Of a DNA stretch of 43,929 nucleotides, positions 24,993 through 43,232 are shown in pieces. The notes under the pieces are model-generated. The model saw only the letters and a program-made list of their open reading frames with translations, was not told the origin of the DNA and ran no database searches. Origin of the DNA: a virus (lineage: Duplodnaviria > Caudoviricetes); IMG/VR virus record IMGVR_UViG_3300032320_002037, positions 1 through 43,929 of that record; one strand, written 5' to 3'. Position 1 is the first letter of the stretch; every line of letters begins with the position of its first letter. The position numbers and the translations under genes are program-made.

Positions 24993-27461
24993 TTAAATTT
25001 CTCCTAGTCGATAGTCTTCATCTGTGTGCATCCAGGATTGACCGTAGCCTCCTTCAAAGGGGATAACAAGTCGCTCGTTGGCGATGGATAGGGTGTTGTT
25101 GAAGTAGGATTGAATTTTTGCAATTGCCCATTCCGTTTTTTCAATTGGAAACTGTCCGCAAAGCGCGTCATGCACTGAGTGCAAGGGCTGGATGATAAGG
25201 TCACCGGACGTGGTTCTGTTGTCAGGATCGAGCCACAGCTTTTGCATGGCCAGATTTGTGGCATAGGTGGTATTGGCTTGGGGTTCATGGGCGTAAGCGG
25301 CTTTGAAGGTTTGGTCGTTACCTGGGCGTCCGAAGAATGTGCGGACGTGGCCTGAGGCACAGGAGAGGGTGCGGTGCTTGGTTACTTGTTGCTGGACCCA
25401 GCGTTGCCAGGAGAGCACACCGGGGTAACGTTTGAAGAAGACGTTTTGGACTTTTTTACAATCGTTAGGTGGAACCCAGACGACGTTGAGTTCGGCGGAT
25501 TTTTTGAAGGTTTGAAGGAGGATGTTGTTCGCCATGGTGTTGGGGCCCATGTCGTATGAGGATCCGTGCTGAACAGCTTTGCAGACAGCGTAAAGATGCC
25601 CGGGGATGGAGACTGTCTTGGTGAGACGTTTGATCTCATCGCGGGGTAGGTCATTGATGTTTACGGTTACTTCGTTGAGCTGCCCTTGCATTTGCATATA
25701 CATGAGAGCGATGATTTTGGCAGGTTTCATACCTGCGCGGTAATCGTCGAGCATGGTGGGGTCACCGAGCATGGAGGCGCGAGAGGCTACTGTCCAACCA
25801 TCTGCGCCGGAAAGGTCACATTGGAAGAAGTGGTAGCCTGGGTCTGGCTGGTAGAGATATCGAAGCTGTTTTGTAATAGTCTGAAGGTTCGTTCCTGATC
25901 CTGTAACTGATCCTGAGCAAGACAAGCGGCCCGTCTCTGTTCCAACCAGGTTGTAGGAACATCTAACTCTTTCGTCAGGGTCAGTTGCCAGCTCAAGTTG
26001 CTTCCGAACGCCTTCGAGCTTCTTCCATCCGAGGGCGCAGGCCAAGAATGGATGAGTGTTTGCTCCTTGTTTGATGATGATTTTAAGCATTGCGTCTGCA
26101 TTGGCGGTGAGTTTAGTGGTTTTATGTCCAGCTTCCTTGATGTATTGAGGCTCAAAGCCGAGCTTTTTATACAGAAGGTCGCACATTTGCTTAGGTGAGT
26201 TAAGGTTGATTTCCTGGTTAGCATGACTATTGCAGGCTAACTGGAGCTCGAGCATTTTGGTTTTAATCTCGGCAAGATTAACTTTGGCAGCTTTAGTGTC
26301 ATACTTGATTCCGCGCAGGGACATGTATTGCAAAGATGGGATCAGCGACATATTAAAGTCGTAATGCTTGCGTTGGTCTGGAGTCATCGCTGCCATGTGG
26401 TTTTGATGAATTTCCAGCGTTACGGCGGCATCTTTACAACAATAGGTTCGATGGAGTTTCTTTGCTTCGGTGATGTCAAGATCGGCACCAGAAGTTCGCT
26501 CGAATTTGTAGTATGGTTCCTTTGACCAGATGGACGCTTGAGTTCCCAGGCTTTTGGGAAGTTCAGGGTATATTTCCCAGCCTGATAGCATGGTGTCATG
26601 CTGAATGTTTCGAGCGTTAATGCGCCACAGCCAGGCAAGGACAACGTAGTCATAGAGAGAGTTTTGTAAGACTTTAGGAATCGTGGGGTCGGACATCATT
26701 TTATTGAATGACTTCATTACGATGCCTTTGGTCTGGTCGTCGAAGTCAGAGAGGTTAATTGTCCAGGCTGAAGATGGATCGGTGGATATACCGATGCAGG
26801 TTACACCGTTGAGGTTTTTGTGAGTGGTTTCTTCTGGGTTTGGGACACCTCCTTCTATGTCCACGGAGCAAAGTCGTCCTTCCGAAATGGAGGCCAGTCT
26901 TGCAAGGCACTCGCTGGCGGTGAGGGAGGGTTCGAGCTTTCTGATGGGTAGGGATAACTCGTTTGAATGGGATTCTTCACAGGCACGGTTAATGTCAAAT
27001 TGAAAAAGGGGTGCTTCGTCCCAGACTTTTTGCACATATCCTGGAGAAAAGGTTCCAAGGCATTTATAAGCGCCAAAACCAGAGAACAAGGTTCCTCGGT
27101 AAACGTTGATTTTATGATATACACCGGCAGCCCAGAGTGGCGTGCTACCGAGGAGCAAGATACAGTTAGGCTGAAACTTGTTGAGGTCGGACTTGAGAAT
27201 TCGGAGGGACTCATGGAAGTCAGGATCAGATTTGTTAATGTTTTCTACGTCGCCGCTGGGCGGGATTTGATTATAGACATAACCGCGAAAGCAGTTAGAC
27301 ATGATGATACCGGAGTTTTGCAGGGCTGCGGTGAGAAGACCAGAGGAGGGACCAGCGAATGGTCGGCCCTGGGCAAGCTCGTGCGGACCTGGCGCATCAC
27401 CGATAATGGCTAAGCGGTAAGGTGCAGGGGAGAGAGGAAAGGCGTTGGGAAGGTGGGTCAT
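24993..27461 (-). CDS. polA: Family A DNA polymerase with N-terminal UDG-like domain and 3'-5' exonuclease
   Basis: IGDAPG..GRPFAGPS (UDG family-4-like); exonuclease SVDIEG, QNSLYD, YCCKDA; TETGRLS, TNLQTI, motif A CDLSGAD, motif C VHDAL. Confidence 0.92.
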   Translation of the reverse strand: MTHLPNAFPLSPAPYRLAIIGDAPGPHELAQGRPFAGPSSGLLTAALQNSGIIMSNCFRGYVYNQIPPSGDVENINKSDPDFHESLRILKSDLNKFQPNCILLLGSTPLWAAGVYHKINVYRGTLFSGFGAYKCLGTFSPGYVQKVWDEAPLFQFDINRACEESHSNELSLPIRKLEPSLTASECLARLASISEGRLCSVDIEGGVPNPEETTHKNLNGVTCIGISTDPSSAWTINLSDFDDQTKGIVMKSFNKMMSDPTIPKVLQNSLYDYVVLAWLWRINARNIQHDTMLSGWEIYPELPKSLGTQASIWSKEPYYKFERTSGADLDITEAKKLHRTYCCKDAAVTLEIHQNHMAAMTPDQRKHYDFNMSLIPSLQYMSLRGIKYDTKAAKVNLAEIKTKMLELQLACNSHANQEINLNSPKQMCDLLYKKLGFEPQYIKEAGHKTTKLTANADAMLKIIIKQGANTHPFLACALGWKKLEGVRKQLELATDPDERVRCSYNLVGTETGRLSCSGSVTGSGTNLQTITKQLRYLYQPDPGYHFFQCDLSGADGWTVASRASMLGDPTMLDDYRAGMKPAKIIALMYMQMQGQLNEVTVNINDLPRDEIKRLTKTVSIPGHLYAVCKAVQHGSSYDMGPNTMANNILLQTFKKSAELNVVWVPPNDCKKVQNVFFKRYPGVLSWQRWVQQQVTKHRTLSCASGHVRTFFGRPGNDQTFKAAYAHEPQANTTYATNLAMQKLWLDPDNRTTSGDLIIQPLHSVHDALCGQFPIEKTEWAIAKIQSYFNNTLSIANERLVIPFEGGYGQSWMHTDEDYRLGEI

Positions 27462-28927
27462 ACGAAATTAACTTGTCCTCCTAGCATTGCTTTGTAGGTG
27501 TCTTTCACACGGTTTTCCAATTCAGGGAAGCGTTTGTCGTCGATTTCACAGCCGATGATTTTGCAACCGCGTAGGATACAGGCGCGGAGAATAGAACCGC
27601 CGCCTGCAAATGGGTCGAGGATGGTCATACCTGGGAAGTGAATTGGGTCGAGGATCATCTGGTTGATGAAGTCGAGCGGTTTGGCAAAGGGATTAGACTG
27701 GAGTTTTTTATCCGGCATGCCGTCGACTTCGAGATGGCACTTGGTCATAGGTTTTGCTAGGCGTGGAGAGCCTTTCTTCATAACCATGACAGGTTCATAG
27801 GACTTGGTGGGGTTGATATGTGGCGCGTTGTTTTTGCACGAGTGCGGCTTAAGCCAGAGAAGATTCCAGTCGAGCACATTGAAGCCAACTTCGCGTCCCC
27901 AGGTAGCAAGCTTTTCTTGATGTTGCTGGGCGTAGAAGAAGAACAGATAAGTGTTGTCTTTAAGCACACGATAAGCGCCTTGGAGGAAAGGTTTCATCTG
28001 TTCTACGTTTTGATTGACATCGTGGGTAGAGCGCATTTGGTCAATACCATGCATGTCTTCCATAAGGTCCATGTCAATGCCATAAGGGATGTCGGTGATA
28101 ATGGAGTCGATCGAAGACGGCGCGAGCTTTGTCATCATGAGTTCTACGCAGTCCATGTTAAACAAGCGGTCAGAGATTTGCACCGTGCGCATTTCACGAA
28201 TTTGCTCTGGGGAAGCTGGAGTTACCGATAGTGCAGCAGGAGAGGTGGTGTTGCCGAGTTGGATAGAGATGATGCCAGTGGGCTTGGTGGACTTGGCTGG
28301 TTGAGGAATGACTAGGACGTTGGCGGATTGAAGGGCTTTGGCTTTGATGGCGTCTTGCTCTTTGCGGCCAAGGAGAATTTGCTTAGCTTGGTCGAAAGTT
28401 TTAGCGTCCCAGATTTCTTTATCTTCTCGGCGGAGAGCTAGGGCGACGATAAGGCAGTCTTTGACATAGGAGTGAGATTGTCCGACGAGTTCACCGGTGG
28501 CGCGAAGGCCCCATTGTTTCTTACGGTCAGCGGAGACTTTGGTTTCTTTCTCGTGAACAGCATTGATGGCAAGGCACTTGTCTTGCCAGCACATTTCAGC
28601 GCGGCGAGTGTTTTCGTCGAGCTCGATCATGAGTTCCATTGCGCGGTCGATGTTCATGCGACGGACATAAGGAACTTCGGTCTGGCCTAAGAGCTTGTAG
28701 GCTTCTAAGCGGCACTCGCCAGCGATGAGTTCATTAGCCTCGTTAATCATGATTGGCGTAATCGGGCCGACGAGGATGATGGAGTCGTAAATGGTGGCAG
28801 CATTGGCGGCAACTTCCTTAGGGTCACGACGGATACGCTCGGAGCGTTTGACTACGATGTCGGAGATGTTGATATAAGAAACGCCTTCGAGACGCTTGAT
28901 TTTACGAGGTTCGGTGGTAGTGGACAT
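27458..28927 (-). CDS. ParB/Srx-like domain fused to an N6/N4 DNA methyltransferase
   Basis: LIAGECRLEA, ELDENTRR, HTH; TDIPYG and ILDPFAGGGS, GCEID (beta-class order). Confidence 0.85.
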   Translation of the reverse strand: MSTTTEPRKIKRLEGVSYINISDIVVKRSERIRRDPKEVAANAATIYDSIILVGPITPIMINEANELIAGECRLEAYKLLGQTEVPYVRRMNIDRAMELMIELDENTRRAEMCWQDKCLAINAVHEKETKVSADRKKQWGLRATGELVGQSHSYVKDCLIVALALRREDKEIWDAKTFDQAKQILLGRKEQDAIKAKALQSANVLVIPQPAKSTKPTGIISIQLGNTTSPAALSVTPASPEQIREMRTVQISDRLFNMDCVELMMTKLAPSSIDSIITDIPYGIDMDLMEDMHGIDQMRSTHDVNQNVEQMKPFLQGAYRVLKDNTYLFFFYAQQHQEKLATWGREVGFNVLDWNLLWLKPHSCKNNAPHINPTKSYEPVMVMKKGSPRLAKPMTKCHLEVDGMPDKKLQSNPFAKPLDFINQMILDPIHFPGMTILDPFAGGGSILRACILRGCKIIGCEIDDKRFPELENRVKDTYKAMLGGQVNFV

Positions 28928-28976
28928 GGAAATATGAGGCACGAGAATAAAGCCCTCGTGCCAGAGGCTGGTTTGG

Positions 28977-33350: not shown

Positions 33351-33613
33351 TAGAAGGAAAAGGTAAGGCGGGAAATCATTTGGTTAAAGCGTTCGTTGTT
33401 GGAGACTTCTAGCTCTTCAGTGGTTGCGAGGGGGAGTTGTTCCCGCAGAGCGGTCATGAAGTGGAAGAAGAGAGAGCTAAGAGCGCCGTCGATAGAGCCG
33501 TGACGAGCCAGACGGAACTTGAAGTCTAGGATGTCTTGCGCACTGGCATCAAAGCAAAGTTCTTTGAGAACAGTTGGTTGCAGTTTATAGGGGTTTTGGA
33601 TTTTATCTTGCAT
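33350..33613 (-). CDS. Hypothetical protein
   Basis: 87 aa, TAATG coupling. Confidence 0.6.
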   Translation of the reverse strand: MQDKIQNPYKLQPTVLKELCFDASAQDILDFKFRLARHGSIDGALSSLFFHFMTALREQLPLATTEELEVSNNERFNQMISRLTFSF

Positions 33614-34128
33614 TAGAGGAGTGTTAGGGTGTTGTCTGCATTGGTTATGATTTCAACATTTGGGTAGTTGATGGATATGTCGAAAGGTGGGTTGAAGTTG
33701 GTGATTGAAATGGGGAAAGGGAGATGGTCGAAGTTCTTTAGGTGGAGTAGAGAGGTCAGGGTCGTTGGATCAGAGCAGTCAATGGGAGGAATTTGGATTG
33801 CCTCTGGAGGGCGAGTGCCGTCGACAGCAACGTGGACCTGGCCTTTTTGCTTTCTGGATCTTCGTGGGCCGATGTATACAGAACCATCAGGATTGGTGCC
33901 AAAGACAAAAGCTCGCTCGACTAAAAGGGCTTGGTCATGGGAGATTACCGAGGAGAAGTGAGGGTTTGCAGTGAGAAGGGAGAGGGCTTGCTGGAGGTTT
34001 TGGCGGACGGTGGAGGGAGAGCGACCTGAGCAGTAGATTGTTGAGGGTTCGGGATAGCGGGAGATTATTTGAGAGAGGTAGGGTTCCCATGGGAGGAAGG
34101 AGGAATAGAGTTGGGAGGAGGGTGTCAT
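33613..34128 (-). CDS. Hypothetical protein
   Basis: 171 aa, TAATG coupling. Confidence 0.6.
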   Translation of the reverse strand: MTPSSQLYSSFLPWEPYLSQIISRYPEPSTIYCSGRSPSTVRQNLQQALSLLTANPHFSSVISHDQALLVERAFVFGTNPDGSVYIGPRRSRKQKGQVHVAVDGTRPPEAIQIPPIDCSDPTTLTSLLHLKNFDHLPFPISITNFNPPFDISINYPNVEIITNADNTLTLL

Positions 34129-34142
34129 GGGAGTTGGGAGAG

Positions 34143-34211
34143 GGTGAAGAACGACAGGAGTTGAACCTGTATTCCAGAGAGGCTCTGGTCTTACTGTTAG
34201 ATGACGGTCTT
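34143..34211 (-). tRNA. tRNA-like element / degenerate tRNA with a collapsed anticodon loop
   Basis: Acceptor AAGACCG/CGTTCTT, D arm ATCT-AACAGTA-AGAC, CAGAG-CCT-CTCTG arm, perfect T arm ACAGG-TTCAACT-CCTGT; no CCA. Confidence 0.6.
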
Positions 34212-34230
34212 TGAGAGGTGGGGTTACCGA

Positions 34231-34518
34231 TTACCACTTGGTTTTATCAGCCCAGTATGCAGCAGACATCTTGCCTTTGGCGATGTTTGAAGCGTGGCGG
34301 GCTTTGAATGACTCGCGGCGTTCGCGGGCAGAAGCAGATTCGCCCTCGGTTTTAGGTGAACCGGAGACTCCTTGCTGGCCGAAGCGGATGGTTTTTACCT
34401 GGGAGCCTTCTCTAGCGACGACAACGTGAGACTTGGTGGGATGGTTAGGTGTGCGCTTGGGTGTGTTGACGTCAGAGACACCGATGCGGTTTAATAGGGA
34501 TGAGATGTTAGAGGACAT
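34231..34518 (-). CDS. Small basic phage protein (widespread family of unknown function)
   Basis: KRTPNHPTKSHVV..IRFGQQG..RRESFKARH..SAAYWA..KW, a pattern I recall from many phages. Confidence 0.75.
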   Translation of the reverse strand: MSSNISSLLNRIGVSDVNTPKRTPNHPTKSHVVVAREGSQVKTIRFGQQGVSGSPKTEGESASARERRESFKARHASNIAKGKMSAAYWADKTKW

Positions 34519-34539
34519 AGGAATGTGAGTTTGGAATTA

Positions 34540-35060
34540 AGATGCCCGTCGTTACAGTGACGGAGCCGAGGCTGGCAAGTTGTGATTTAACGTCTAACTA
34601 ACAACTGCAACCGGACGACATGCTGGATATGTTAGCGATTATCAGTGCATGTTTTTAATATCGAAATCAGGTGCTTTTAACGCGGCATAGATTTAATCCT
34701 TCACCTCGGCAGTCCCTTTGTCCAGTGGGATCAGCAAATCTCTGGCCTAGCTTTTGAGCACCATACGGTGCCTTGGCTAGGTGGTTGAAGGCAAGCTGCG
34801 CGGTTTATCAGTCCGCCGCTTTACCCTCAAATCAACACACTGGTCAGGTCGCTCACAGCGGGCCATCATCTAGCCGTGGTGTTGGTAGTCGTCACTACTT
34901 AGCGAGAGGCTTTAATGCTTTGCATTCCAAGCACTGATGACTTCAACGCTGTGCCCTCACTGCAATGTGTTGATTTGAAGGTGGGTAGTTTAATGACTTG
35001 CCCAGGTCATCTGCAACTTAGTGGGTTTACAACCGTTACAACGAGTTTTCTAAGCTGCAA
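34540..35060 (-). ncRNA. Candidate large structured non-coding RNA (~520 nt)
   Basis: Non-coding gap in an otherwise gene-packed arm; 20-bp helix 34823-34842/34963-34982, nested helices, pseudoknots; G-U pairs in the right half favour the - strand. Confidence 0.65.
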
Positions 35061-35065
35061 ATTGG

Positions 35066-35722
35066 TTACACCAGACCGGCTGGGACTTCCAGCTCGCGGC
35101 GCTTGGCGTCGATTTCCAGCGCGCGGGCAAGGCCATCTTCCGTGAAGCCACCGATGTTGTCGAAGTTGTAGCCGGGGTTAGCGGCAGACCACTTGGCAGC
35201 AAAGCCTTCGGCAGTGACGGGTTGACCATCGGAACCAATGGAGCCAGCTTCGGCCATAGCGAGGATGCGCTTGGCGAGGGTGAAGAACTTGGCATCTGGT
35301 TCGGATTCGGCTTCTTCCGTAGAGACCTCGAAGGGAATGGTGTCAGCGACCTGCTGGGCAAGGACATTGTAATCAACTTCGGAGATGAGAGGAGCTTGAT
35401 AGTCGGCATCGCCGGGAGCTCCTTTGCCGTTCACGACGAGCTTGATGTAATCGCCTTCGGAGATGAGGATTTCCACGGTGTCGCCAGCGCGGTTCTTCTT
35501 CTGTTTGCCAGTGGATGGCACAGCGAGACCGGTGTGGGCAACGAGGGCCTGGACCATAGACTTGCGCTGCTTGTTGTTCCAGCCTTGGTAGAGGCTGTGC
35601 TTGATCGCAGCATGGCGGACGTCACGGGGATTGGAGAAGGCCACGAGGTCTTCAAGGGTCGCAGGGACCATGAGAGTGACGGTTGCGCCGAGAGTGCGAT
35701 TGGAGTAAGGAACGAGGTTCAT
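35066..35722 (-). CDS. Hypothetical protein, probably highly expressed
   Basis: 218 aa, strong C-ending codon bias, AC-rich leader. Confidence 0.75.
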   Translation of the reverse strand: MNLVPYSNRTLGATVTLMVPATLEDLVAFSNPRDVRHAAIKHSLYQGWNNKQRKSMVQALVAHTGLAVPSTGKQKKNRAGDTVEILISEGDYIKLVVNGKGAPGDADYQAPLISEVDYNVLAQQVADTIPFEVSTEEAESEPDAKFFTLAKRILAMAEAGSIGSDGQPVTAEGFAAKWSAANPGYNFDNIGGFTEDGLARALEIDAKRRELEVPAGLV

Positions 35723-35798: not shown

Positions 35799-35826
35799 AA
35801 GATAAGCGAAAAGGGGAAAAGCGCAA
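35799..35826 (-). promoter_or_regulatory. Possible sigma70-like promoter for the 35722 gene and downstream RNA locus
   Basis: TTGCGC-16 nt-TATCTT in a 200-bp intergenic gap. Confidence 0.35.
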
Positions 35827-35923
35827 GGGGTTTTTCCCTGTTTCCGTTTATGGCTTTTATAGTGAAACGTGGTGGGTATTCGCGAGTTACCGATTTTGAA
35901 AGTTTGCAGGTGGAGAAGTTAGG

Positions 35924-42323: not shown

Positions 42324-42352
42324 GGGTGGGTAAGTGGAGGTTACCGATGAGG

Positions 42353-43092: not shown

Positions 43093-43232
43093 TGATTTTT
43101 GGCGTTGATCGAGCTTTGACGAGGCTCTAGGCTCGCCAGTGAGGACACTGGGAAAGGGGTGGGGAAGGGTGGGTTACCGATAGGGCGGGCGGGAAAAGGG
43201 GAAGCATGAAAAGGCGAAAGTCAAATGAATAA

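What the first reader, a model, noticed from the sequence alone, without database searches (positions are those of the whole stretch)
34143..35722. Possible RNP cassette: 218-aa protein, large RNA, small basic protein, tRNA mimic
Seen, co-oriented on the - strand after a putative promoter near 35800: a codon-biased 218-aa ORF, the structured RNA, a 95-aa K/R/H-rich protein, an ATCGGTAACC motif and the tRNA-like element. Inference: one transcript processed at the tRNA-like fold, with the basic protein binding the RNA. This is the best candidate here for an undescribed system (RNA scaffold, anti-defence decoy or replication-priming role). The linkage could also be coincidental.
Basis: inference. 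Interest (0 to 1): 0.8.

Follow-up and report, generated by a model that had tools for sequence, protein, structure and literature searches.

The report
Shuffled phage small-RNA cassette array
The supposed single RNA-protein machine is really a variable phage cassette of several small folded RNAs, with fixed frames and payloads that related phages swap, and the small basic protein is an optional passenger; most of these RNAs are in no family catalogue and their job is unknown.

Summary
The window is a 44-kb uncultured tailed phage. Behind the 218-aa gene lies a variable slot of small RNA modules: two pseudoknots (A, C), a 19-bp duplex (B) clamping a 35-202-nt interchangeable interior, a near-invariant 32-nt element (D), and tRNA shells without a normal anticodon arm. 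Relatives lose, duplicate, reorder and swap these modules. The 95-aa gene (phrog_7595) is in only 2 of 22 complete arrays and 1 of 16 loci picked by the 218-aa protein, and none of its 80 best other loci has the array. The 218-aa gene is tightly linked (14 of 16) but acidic and of unknown fold. Best reading (0.6): an early operon cut by host RNases into small stable RNAs, like the T4/T5 'stable RNAs of unknown function' but nearly without real tRNAs; a decoy role is inference. No Rfam 15 match. Expression, processing and binding are untested. The scan noted B and tRNA-shell RNAs before on other DNA.

The parts
35799..35826 (-). Putative sigma-70-type promoter (-35 box 35826-35821, 16-nt spacer, -10 box 35804-35799)
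   Evidence: Same pair of boxes by eye in 27 of 28 upstream regions of the 218-aa gene; 8 of 12 consensus matches, below the scanner's cut-off. Function inferred.
35066..35722 (-). p218: acidic (pI 5.0) protein of no named family; fixed upstream anchor of the array
   Evidence: 33 close homologs, 253 clusters at 50%; no Pfam/PHROG/PDB family; confident model, pLDDT 93.5; best structural match an uncharacterised phage protein, E 2e-4.
35011..35065 (-). Variable hairpin module after the p218 stop
   Evidence: z -2.6; no blastn match in the 49 other rows; this slot holds different sequences in relatives.
34983..35010 (-). Module A: compact H-type pseudoknot with A-rich loop
   Evidence: 14 aligned copies: 96.8% of cells paired, 4 of 9 pairs with two-sided changes, 0 of 500 shuffles reach the covariation score.
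34823..34982 (-). Module B: 19-bp closing duplex plus conserved internal loops (arms 34982-34951 and 34856-34823) around a variable interior (34950-34857)
   Evidence: z -6.5; in 27 rows arm changes are almost all G-U-compatible on the - strand, one two-sided change in 2 rows; interiors 35-202 nt, 23 distinct.
34781..34828 (-). Module B': short helix that starts with the last bases of B and ends before ACCA, with its own variable interior
   Evidence: Folds as a hairpin here; shared with L206, L189, L107; 13 of 23 distinct B-to-C segments have 5-6 of 6 such pairs followed by NCCA (the window's copy is offset and was not counted).
34746..34780 (-). Variable two-tier hairpin
   Evidence: z -4.1; no blastn match in the other rows, a look-alike by eye in L159.
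34706..34745 (-). Module C: near-invariant H-type pseudoknot
   Evidence: 17 aligned copies: 89.3% paired, 2 of 11 pairs with two-sided change, both from one sequence (L144), 4 of 500 shuffles; present in 16 of 22 complete arrays.
34575..34705 (-). Variable cargo between C and D
   Evidence: z +1.2 as a whole; its 3' piece recurs in L211 in another slot, before A.
34543..34574 (-). Module D: 32-nt near-invariant element with a hairpin; often directly upstream of cargo ORFs
   Evidence: 20 of 36 viral pattern hits carry the full element; 13 of 22 complete arrays; also in 8 rows with no p218 or p171 match; 0 hits in 185,579 cellular genomes.
34231..34518 (-). p95: small basic protein, phrog_7595, DUF5754-like; optional cargo gene
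   Evidence: PHROG E 2.5e-38; 8000 of 8000 scored candidates are homologs; inside an array in 5 phages only.
34223..34232 (-). ATCGGTAAC motif; genome-wide intergenic motif, not part of the cassette
   Evidence: 7 matches in the window; absent after p95 in L114, L192, L212.
34143..34211 (-). 69-nt tRNA shell: acceptor stem 6 of 7 pairs, D arm, T arm, shortened anticodon arm with a 3-nt loop, no encoded CCA
   Evidence: 90% identical copy in L194 with a two-sided T-stem change and no p95 next to it.
33613..34128 (-). p171: downstream anchor gene, no family
   Evidence: Follows the array in all 22 complete arrays by definition and in 14 of 16 loci picked by p218; no Pfam/PHROG hit.

Best explanation
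The slot between the p218 and p171 genes is a cassette array of independent small structured RNAs in an early operon. Shown: fixed frames (A, B, B', C, D, E and tRNA shells) alternate with variable payloads (RNA domains, small ORFs, homing endonucleases), and payloads move between phages. Inferred: host polymerase makes one transcript from the promoter at about 35800; host RNases cut it (RNase III at the B duplex, RNase P and 3' trimming at the tRNA shells, pseudoknots as exonuclease stops) into several small stable RNAs, as in the T4/T5 tRNA regions; the invariant frames also serve as crossover points for payload exchange. Most likely job (inferred, about 0.35 on its own): decoys or aptamers that titrate host RNA-binding or tRNA-attacking defence proteins, which would explain invariant frames with fast-changing payloads. 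p95 is a passenger gene that uses the strong transcript.
For: Module loss among 22 complete arrays: C in 16, D in 13, E in 16. Reordering or duplication in L117, L152, L171, L194. ORFs split the array, even inside B (L152) or between B and C (L243); HNH endonuclease cargo in L190. An identical 52-nt B interior in L001, L099, L218, whose p218 are 42-76% alike, while L218 (p218 92% like the window's) has a different interior from the window. D, C or E in phages without p218/p171 matches. Covariation for A, weak for C, G-U-compatible change in B. tRNA shells of 69-179 nt with free inserts in 26 of 49 other rows, a few doubtful. T5's region has the same mix of stable RNAs, small ORFs and HNH genes; T5 RNA1 has the same shell plan.
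Against: No transcript, end or cleavage site was observed. The order A-B-C-D-E is kept in most arrays, which also fits one RNA with a conserved core. The whole-region ensemble has 16 cross-module pairs above 0.8 probability, 7 of them A-C. C, D and E are so invariant that covariation says little; homogenisation by recombination could give the same pattern. The CCA after B' overlaps the first helix of C, so cutting there would destroy C. No sequence match to T4/T5 RNAs. Most arrays were found through RNA patterns, so presence of B is biased in that set. No host or target identified.
Confidence: 0.6

Rival explanations
1. One large RNA with a conserved core (A, B, B', C, D, E) and variable peripheral domains, as in RNase P or the large ornate phage RNAs.
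For: Order mostly kept; nested clamp-plus-insert architecture; whole region z -3.8 with some cross-module pairs.
Against: Each of C, D, E is missing from 6-9 of 22 complete arrays; modules are duplicated, reordered, split by ORFs or found alone. The A-C pairs compete with the covarying A pseudoknot, and A's helix changes without a matching change in C. No Rfam match.
Confidence: 0.12
2. p218 is the protein partner of the RNA, for example binding B or the processed RNAs.
For: B follows p218 in 14 of 16 loci picked by the protein alone; B arms stay nearly identical while p218 drifts to 40%; the model has a basic beta-hairpin at residues 70-86.
Against: pI 5.0; L252 has p218 and p171 with none of B-E; B, C, D, E also occur with no p218 match nearby, e.g. 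L152, L171, L180; being first gene behind a strong promoter explains the linkage.
Confidence: 0.12
3. One reading: p95 binds the neighbouring RNA as its dedicated partner.
For: p95 is basic (pI 10.8); it sits in 5 arrays at 72-85% identity, in different slots and not as one clade (4 changes for 5 rows, poorly resolved quick tree), which could mean repeated recruitment; equal longest-contig lengths hint at 3 more phages with both genes; other small basic ORFs occur in the slot (L212, L114).
Against: Absent from 20 of 22 and 15 of 16 arrays; 0 of 80 other loci have the array; in 3 of 3 cultured phages inspected it lies among head or lysis genes with no RNA annotated; the family is huge, so repeated capture in a variable slot is expected.
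Confidence: 0.07
4. The fixed elements act in cis on the mRNA (processing, stabilising or attenuating signals) or as DNA recombination sites; no stable small RNAs accumulate.
For: D often lies just upstream of cargo ORFs and scores as a weak terminator-like hairpin; near-identity across unrelated phages suits recombination anchors; minimal B forms of 44-49 nt lack any interior.
Against: Strand-specific G-U-compatible changes and pseudoknot covariation point to RNA; many arrays have no cargo ORF; full tRNA shells with NCCA-like ends suit stand-alone RNAs.
Confidence: 0.09

Closest known systems
Phage T5 tRNA region with RNAI, III, IV, RNA1, 2, 2H, 3 (NC_005859) and T4 rnaC/rnaD (NC_000866)
   Same: Co-oriented small RNAs of 70-170 nt mixed with small ORFs and HNH or other homing endonucleases; record notes read 'stable RNA with unknown functions' and 'tRNA-like'; T5 RNA1/RNA2 and T4 rnaC keep acceptor and T arms with a free insert; T4 RNAC/RNAD called 'of yet unknown functions' and seen on Northern blots (PMC9697503, passages).
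   Different: No blastn match at E 0.05; here a 44-kb phage with no decoding tRNA; near-invariant non-tRNA frames B, C, D, E with exchange of interiors; fixed position behind p218.
Bacterial Y RNAs (YrlA) with Ro60
   Same: tRNA-like domain that RNase P can cut and CCA-adding enzyme can extend (PMC4201824, passages); long closing stem around a variable part, like B.
   Different: No Rfam Y RNA hit; neither protein matches Ro60/TROVE in Pfam; the shell is a separate module.
Theta (minimal HDV-like) ribozymes beside phage tRNAs
   Same: Small pseudoknotted RNAs next to tRNA-like genes in phages (PMC10879173, passages).
   Different: A and C are simple H-type pseudoknots without the nested P3/L3; the cytosine after C's first helix is not conserved; a loose descriptor found none in the window array (no positive control).
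Large ornate phage/bacterial RNAs (GOLLD, ROOL, OLE)
   Same: About 550 nt of structured non-coding sequence beside tRNA-like genes (size and context recalled; search listing only).
   Different: No Rfam match; not one conserved fold but a mosaic.
Phage anti-defence RNAs: tRNA supplementation, Racr, viral sgRNAs
   Same: Phage small RNAs from strong promoters that counter host defence (PMC11555353 abstract; 10.64898/2026.06.01.729453 abstract and passages; PMC10651486 listing).
   Different: The shells cannot decode; no CRISPR repeat or tracrRNA family matched in Rfam; no target found.

Membership tests
T4/T5-type phage stable-RNA region | Cluster of co-oriented small non-coding RNAs, some tRNA-shaped without a working anticodon arm, mixed with small ORFs and homing endonucleases | tested here: met
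T4/T5-type phage stable-RNA region | RNAs accumulate as discrete stable products in infection | not testable with these tools
   Only assembled contigs of relatives were available; they show no ends, strand or level
T4/T5-type phage stable-RNA region | Embedded among canonical tRNA genes | tested here: not met
   0 tRNAs in the window; canonical tRNAs only in a few relatives such as L171
T4/T5-type phage stable-RNA region | Sequence homology to rnaC, rnaD or T5 RNAs | tested here: not met
   0 blastn matches of 9 RNAs to 50 rows at E 0.05
Canonical tRNA | 5-bp anticodon stem with 7-nt loop; detection by ARAGORN or Rfam RF00005 | tested here: not met
   6-bp hairpin with 3-nt loop; no hit
Dedicated RNP operon (p95 + RNA) | Protein and RNA genes co-occur across homologs | tested here: not met
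   p95 in 2 of 22 and 1 of 16 arrays; array in 0 of 80 p95 loci
Dedicated RNP operon (p218 + RNA) | Protein and RNA genes co-occur across homologs | tested here: met
   14 of 16; only relatives of 33% identity or more were seen in context
Dedicated RNP operon (either protein) | Physical binding | not testable with these tools
   No protein-RNA assay available
GOLLD/ROOL/OLE/tmRNA/Y RNA/6S and other Rfam 15 families | Covariance-model match at gathering score | tested here: not met
   Window 0; 20 relatives: 8 tRNA matches and 2 sub-threshold matches only
HDV-like/theta ribozyme | Nested double pseudoknot with catalytic C in J4/2 | tested here: inconclusive
   Own loose descriptor found none in the window array, without a positive control; topology of A and C differs by inspection
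phrog_7595 (p95) | Full-length profile match | tested here: met
   E 2.5e-38, residues 7-95
Known RNA-binding folds (p218, p95) | Structural match | tested here: inconclusive
   p218 best Foldseek E 0.34, best Z 5.1; p95 model pLDDT 59.5, best Z 2.8

The most novel reading that the evidence does not exclude
A natural RNA display system: invariant clamps (the B duplex, the B' helix, tRNA shells) fold, protect and release interchangeable RNA payloads, and double as recombination points, so that a phage population keeps a swappable library of decoy or aptamer RNAs against host defences, with p218 as a possible dedicated carrier protein of new fold.
Probability: 0.22. Interest if true: 0.85.

Novelty: new variant of a known kind. 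Interest (0 to 1): 0.52.

Why it matters
T4 and T5 have carried 'stable RNAs of unknown function' for decades. This locus is a compact version stripped of real tRNAs, with dozens of natural variants in which frames stay fixed and payloads swap. That separates frame from payload and gives short, synthesisable RNAs (D 32 nt, C 40 nt, E about 35 nt, B arms) whose near-invariance across unrelated phages points to specific host partners that a pull-down could name. It also removes a false lead: phrog_7595 is not tied to this RNA.

Tried and rejected
Rfam, ARAGORN: nothing in the window. Cultured phages: DNA matches only over p95, none for p218, none for D; capsid relatives at 24-27% give no host. 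Cellular genomes: 0 for D, 0 of 120 candidates for p218; host unknown. Protein atlas: no usable hit for p218. Fold searches gave no named match for either protein; this does not show a new fold. B interiors as antisense guides to the phage's own genome: only 11-16-nt chance-level matches; host genomes could not be tested. Sequencing runs: no RNA holder on record; 4 runs of one study, RNA status guessed, 2 flagged probably DNA, hold contigs of relatives that cover B, C, D and join C to D with other cargo; no evidence on expression, and the thin cover over p95 is no finding. Fremin 2023 (PMC10690425): motif and contig searches in the readable supplements found nothing, but the alignment archives could not be read, so these modules may be among its candidates. 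Paper searches showed no description of this array or a function for DUF5754; the library lacks most subscription papers. One search used a mis-indexed structure and was replaced. The p95 tree is a quick tree and the one-clade test did not finish. Resemblances considered from memory and dropped for lack of matching features: SRP helix 8, 6S RNA, Cas12b repeat, retron a1/a2 (no reverse transcriptase among the genes scanned), attC, 16S decoding site. No complex prediction was run.

Full report
Setting. The window is the whole assembly, one 43,929-base contig. It encodes terminase, portal, major head protein, endolysin, DNA polymerase, ligase, primase, helicase, exonuclease and a Sak4-like protein: a tailed phage. 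Its capsid is 24-27% like 5 cultured phages; the host is unknown. The finding lies in the - strand replication arm, between the helicase and a 171-aa gene (p171).

Observation. Both ORFs, the folded gap, the tRNA-like element, the motif and a promoter-like site are present. The 547-nt gap has z -3.8, but this comes from a 160-nt hairpin (B, z -6.5) and two small hairpins; the 3' 304 nt give z -0.3. Rfam 15 and ARAGORN find nothing.

Relatives. The 218-aa protein (p218) gave 3 viral loci; each has p218, a non-coding stretch and p171, without the 95-aa gene (p95). Only short blocks of the RNA were conserved. Pattern scans for these blocks gave 11 true loci of 53, 20 of 36 and 27 of 62, judged by a second motif in the locus; the rest were chance matches and were dropped. 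One row per contig gave a table of 50 rows including the window, of which 22 show both anchor genes; 4 of the 22 are near-duplicates. A set picked only by the p218 alignment gave 16 loci.

Anatomy. The usual order is p218, variable piece, A, B, B', C, variable piece, D, E, tRNA shells, p171; the window lacks E. A is an H-type pseudoknot: in 14 copies that I chose as A-type (others carry different elements in that slot) 4 of 9 pairs show two-sided changes and 0 of 500 shuffles reach the score (relatedness inflates this). C is a second pseudoknot with two-sided changes from one sequence only. B is a 19-bp duplex with conserved internal loops; in 27 rows the changes are A-U to G-U (10), U-G to C-G (4), C-G to U-G (2), one two-sided change (2 rows) and 3 broken cells besides, which fixes the - strand as the RNA. 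Its interior is 35-202 nt, 23 distinct sequences, mostly not folded beyond chance; minimal forms lack it, and one holds an ORF. The inner loop motif also occurs on a different 20-bp duplex in L239. D and E are almost invariant. tRNA shells keep acceptor, D and T arms and replace the anticodon arm by free inserts; 26 of 49 other rows gave at least one, a few doubtful and a few canonical. The window's 69-nt shell recurs in L194 with the same acceptor mismatch and a two-sided T-stem change.

Mosaicism. Among 22 complete arrays C is in 16, D in 13, E in 16. L117, L152, L171 and L194 reorder or duplicate modules. An identical 52-nt B interior occurs with p218 proteins 42-76% alike, while L218, 92% like the window in p218, has another interior than the window. 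A piece of the window's C-D cargo sits before A in L211. D occurs in 8 rows with no p218 or p171 match, whose neighbours look by eye like polymerase and single-strand-binding genes of other phage types (not run against a library); E occurs without B, C or D in 13 of 30 loci of 1-1.4 kb. Cargo ORFs include acidic peptides, an exonuclease-like gene read by eye, and HNH endonucleases. Against this reading: the order is mostly kept, and the single-sequence ensemble has 16 cross-module pairs above 0.8, though it cannot model pseudoknots.

p95. It is phrog_7595, DUF5754-like by features (46% of that cluster carry the family), with at least 8000 clusters and 596 of 600 viral candidates. In its best 80 loci the RNA finds no blastn match; B3, C, D, E and the shell motif are absent, 7 loci have a loose B5 half-match alone, 1 has an A-type element 2.5 kb away beside real tRNAs, 3 have a T-arm-like hairpin within 400 nt, and gaps of 300 nt or more occur in 1 of 75 upstream and 3 of 77 downstream. 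In 3 cultured phages it lies among head or lysis genes. It is inside an array in 2 of 22 and 1 of 16, 5 phages in all, in different slots, and these 5 do not group on a weak tree. In favour of some link: this recurrence, other basic ORFs in the slot, and 3 equal contig lengths. Its model is poor.

p218. It belongs to a family of 253 clusters without Pfam, PHROG or PDB match. The model is confident with no named structural match. It is acidic. B follows it in 14 of 16 loci; L252 has both anchor genes and no B-E, and L253 is a partial hit in another context. The linkage is real, but a strong promoter upstream explains it without binding.

Mechanism. Shown: modular RNA frames under selection for structure, exchange of payloads, optional p95. 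[quoted passage not shown] Inferred from the fixed-frame, fast-payload pattern and from anti-defence roles of T5's tRNA-rich region (PMC11555353, abstract): a decoy or aptamer role. None of this was observed.

Comparison and novelty. The nearest kind is the T4/T5 stable-RNA region, a lead that came from earlier scan notes and that I checked in the records. It works like that kind but shares no sequence and lacks decoding tRNAs. B was probably noted before by this scan (e1-3261363, 10 of 34 words shared); the C-D stretch and p218 were not. I found no paper on the array (searches listed under Tried and rejected); unreadable supplements of PMC10690425 may hold the modules. Verdict: RNP cassette unlikely; real, uncatalogued, shuffled small-RNA array; new variant of a known kind; interest 0.52.

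Noticed in passing
L001:3928-3962 and 30 viral loci: Module E, about 35 nt, a near-invariant hairpin with a 12-nt conserved loop; absent from the window, present in 16 of 22 arrays and in other phages; no Rfam match.
   Followed up: partly
L001:4046-4178, L003:3994-4077, L159:586-718, L214:1715-1884: A tRNA-shell family with identical acceptor, D and T arms and unrelated inserts of about 30-115 nt.
   Followed up: partly
L152, B module (270 nt); same sequence in L194: A roughly 70-codon ORF captured inside the B duplex, ending in its 3' arm.
   Followed up: partly
L239:4110-4290 (approx.): The inner loop motif of B sits on a different perfect 20-bp duplex, while the usual B duplex in that phage holds another interior; duplex and loop motif are separable.
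   Followed up: no
L170, ORF just upstream of D: A small basic ORF that looks by eye like the DUF6321 type (p95 has a weak DUF6321 hit, E 0.059); other basic ORFs in L212 (phrog_1375), L114, L241, L252. Small basic proteins recur near these arrays.
   Followed up: partly
window 28221-28230, 34223-34232, 34631-34640, 35886-35895, 42340-42349, 43173-43182: ATCGGTAAC-like motif six times on the - strand, mostly just after stops or in gaps; possibly a phage regulatory site.
   Followed up: partly
window 27458-28942: ParB-like domain fused to a DNA methyltransferase, directly upstream of a DNA polymerase with a long N-terminal extension.
   Followed up: no
L099:2150-2260 (- strand orientation), L091, L107, L166, L251: A further conserved structured element just before p171 in the more distant phages, not present in the window.
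   Followed up: no
L061:513-740: An A-type pseudoknot directly before two real tRNAs in an unrelated phage, so A may be a general tRNA-cluster element.
   Followed up: no
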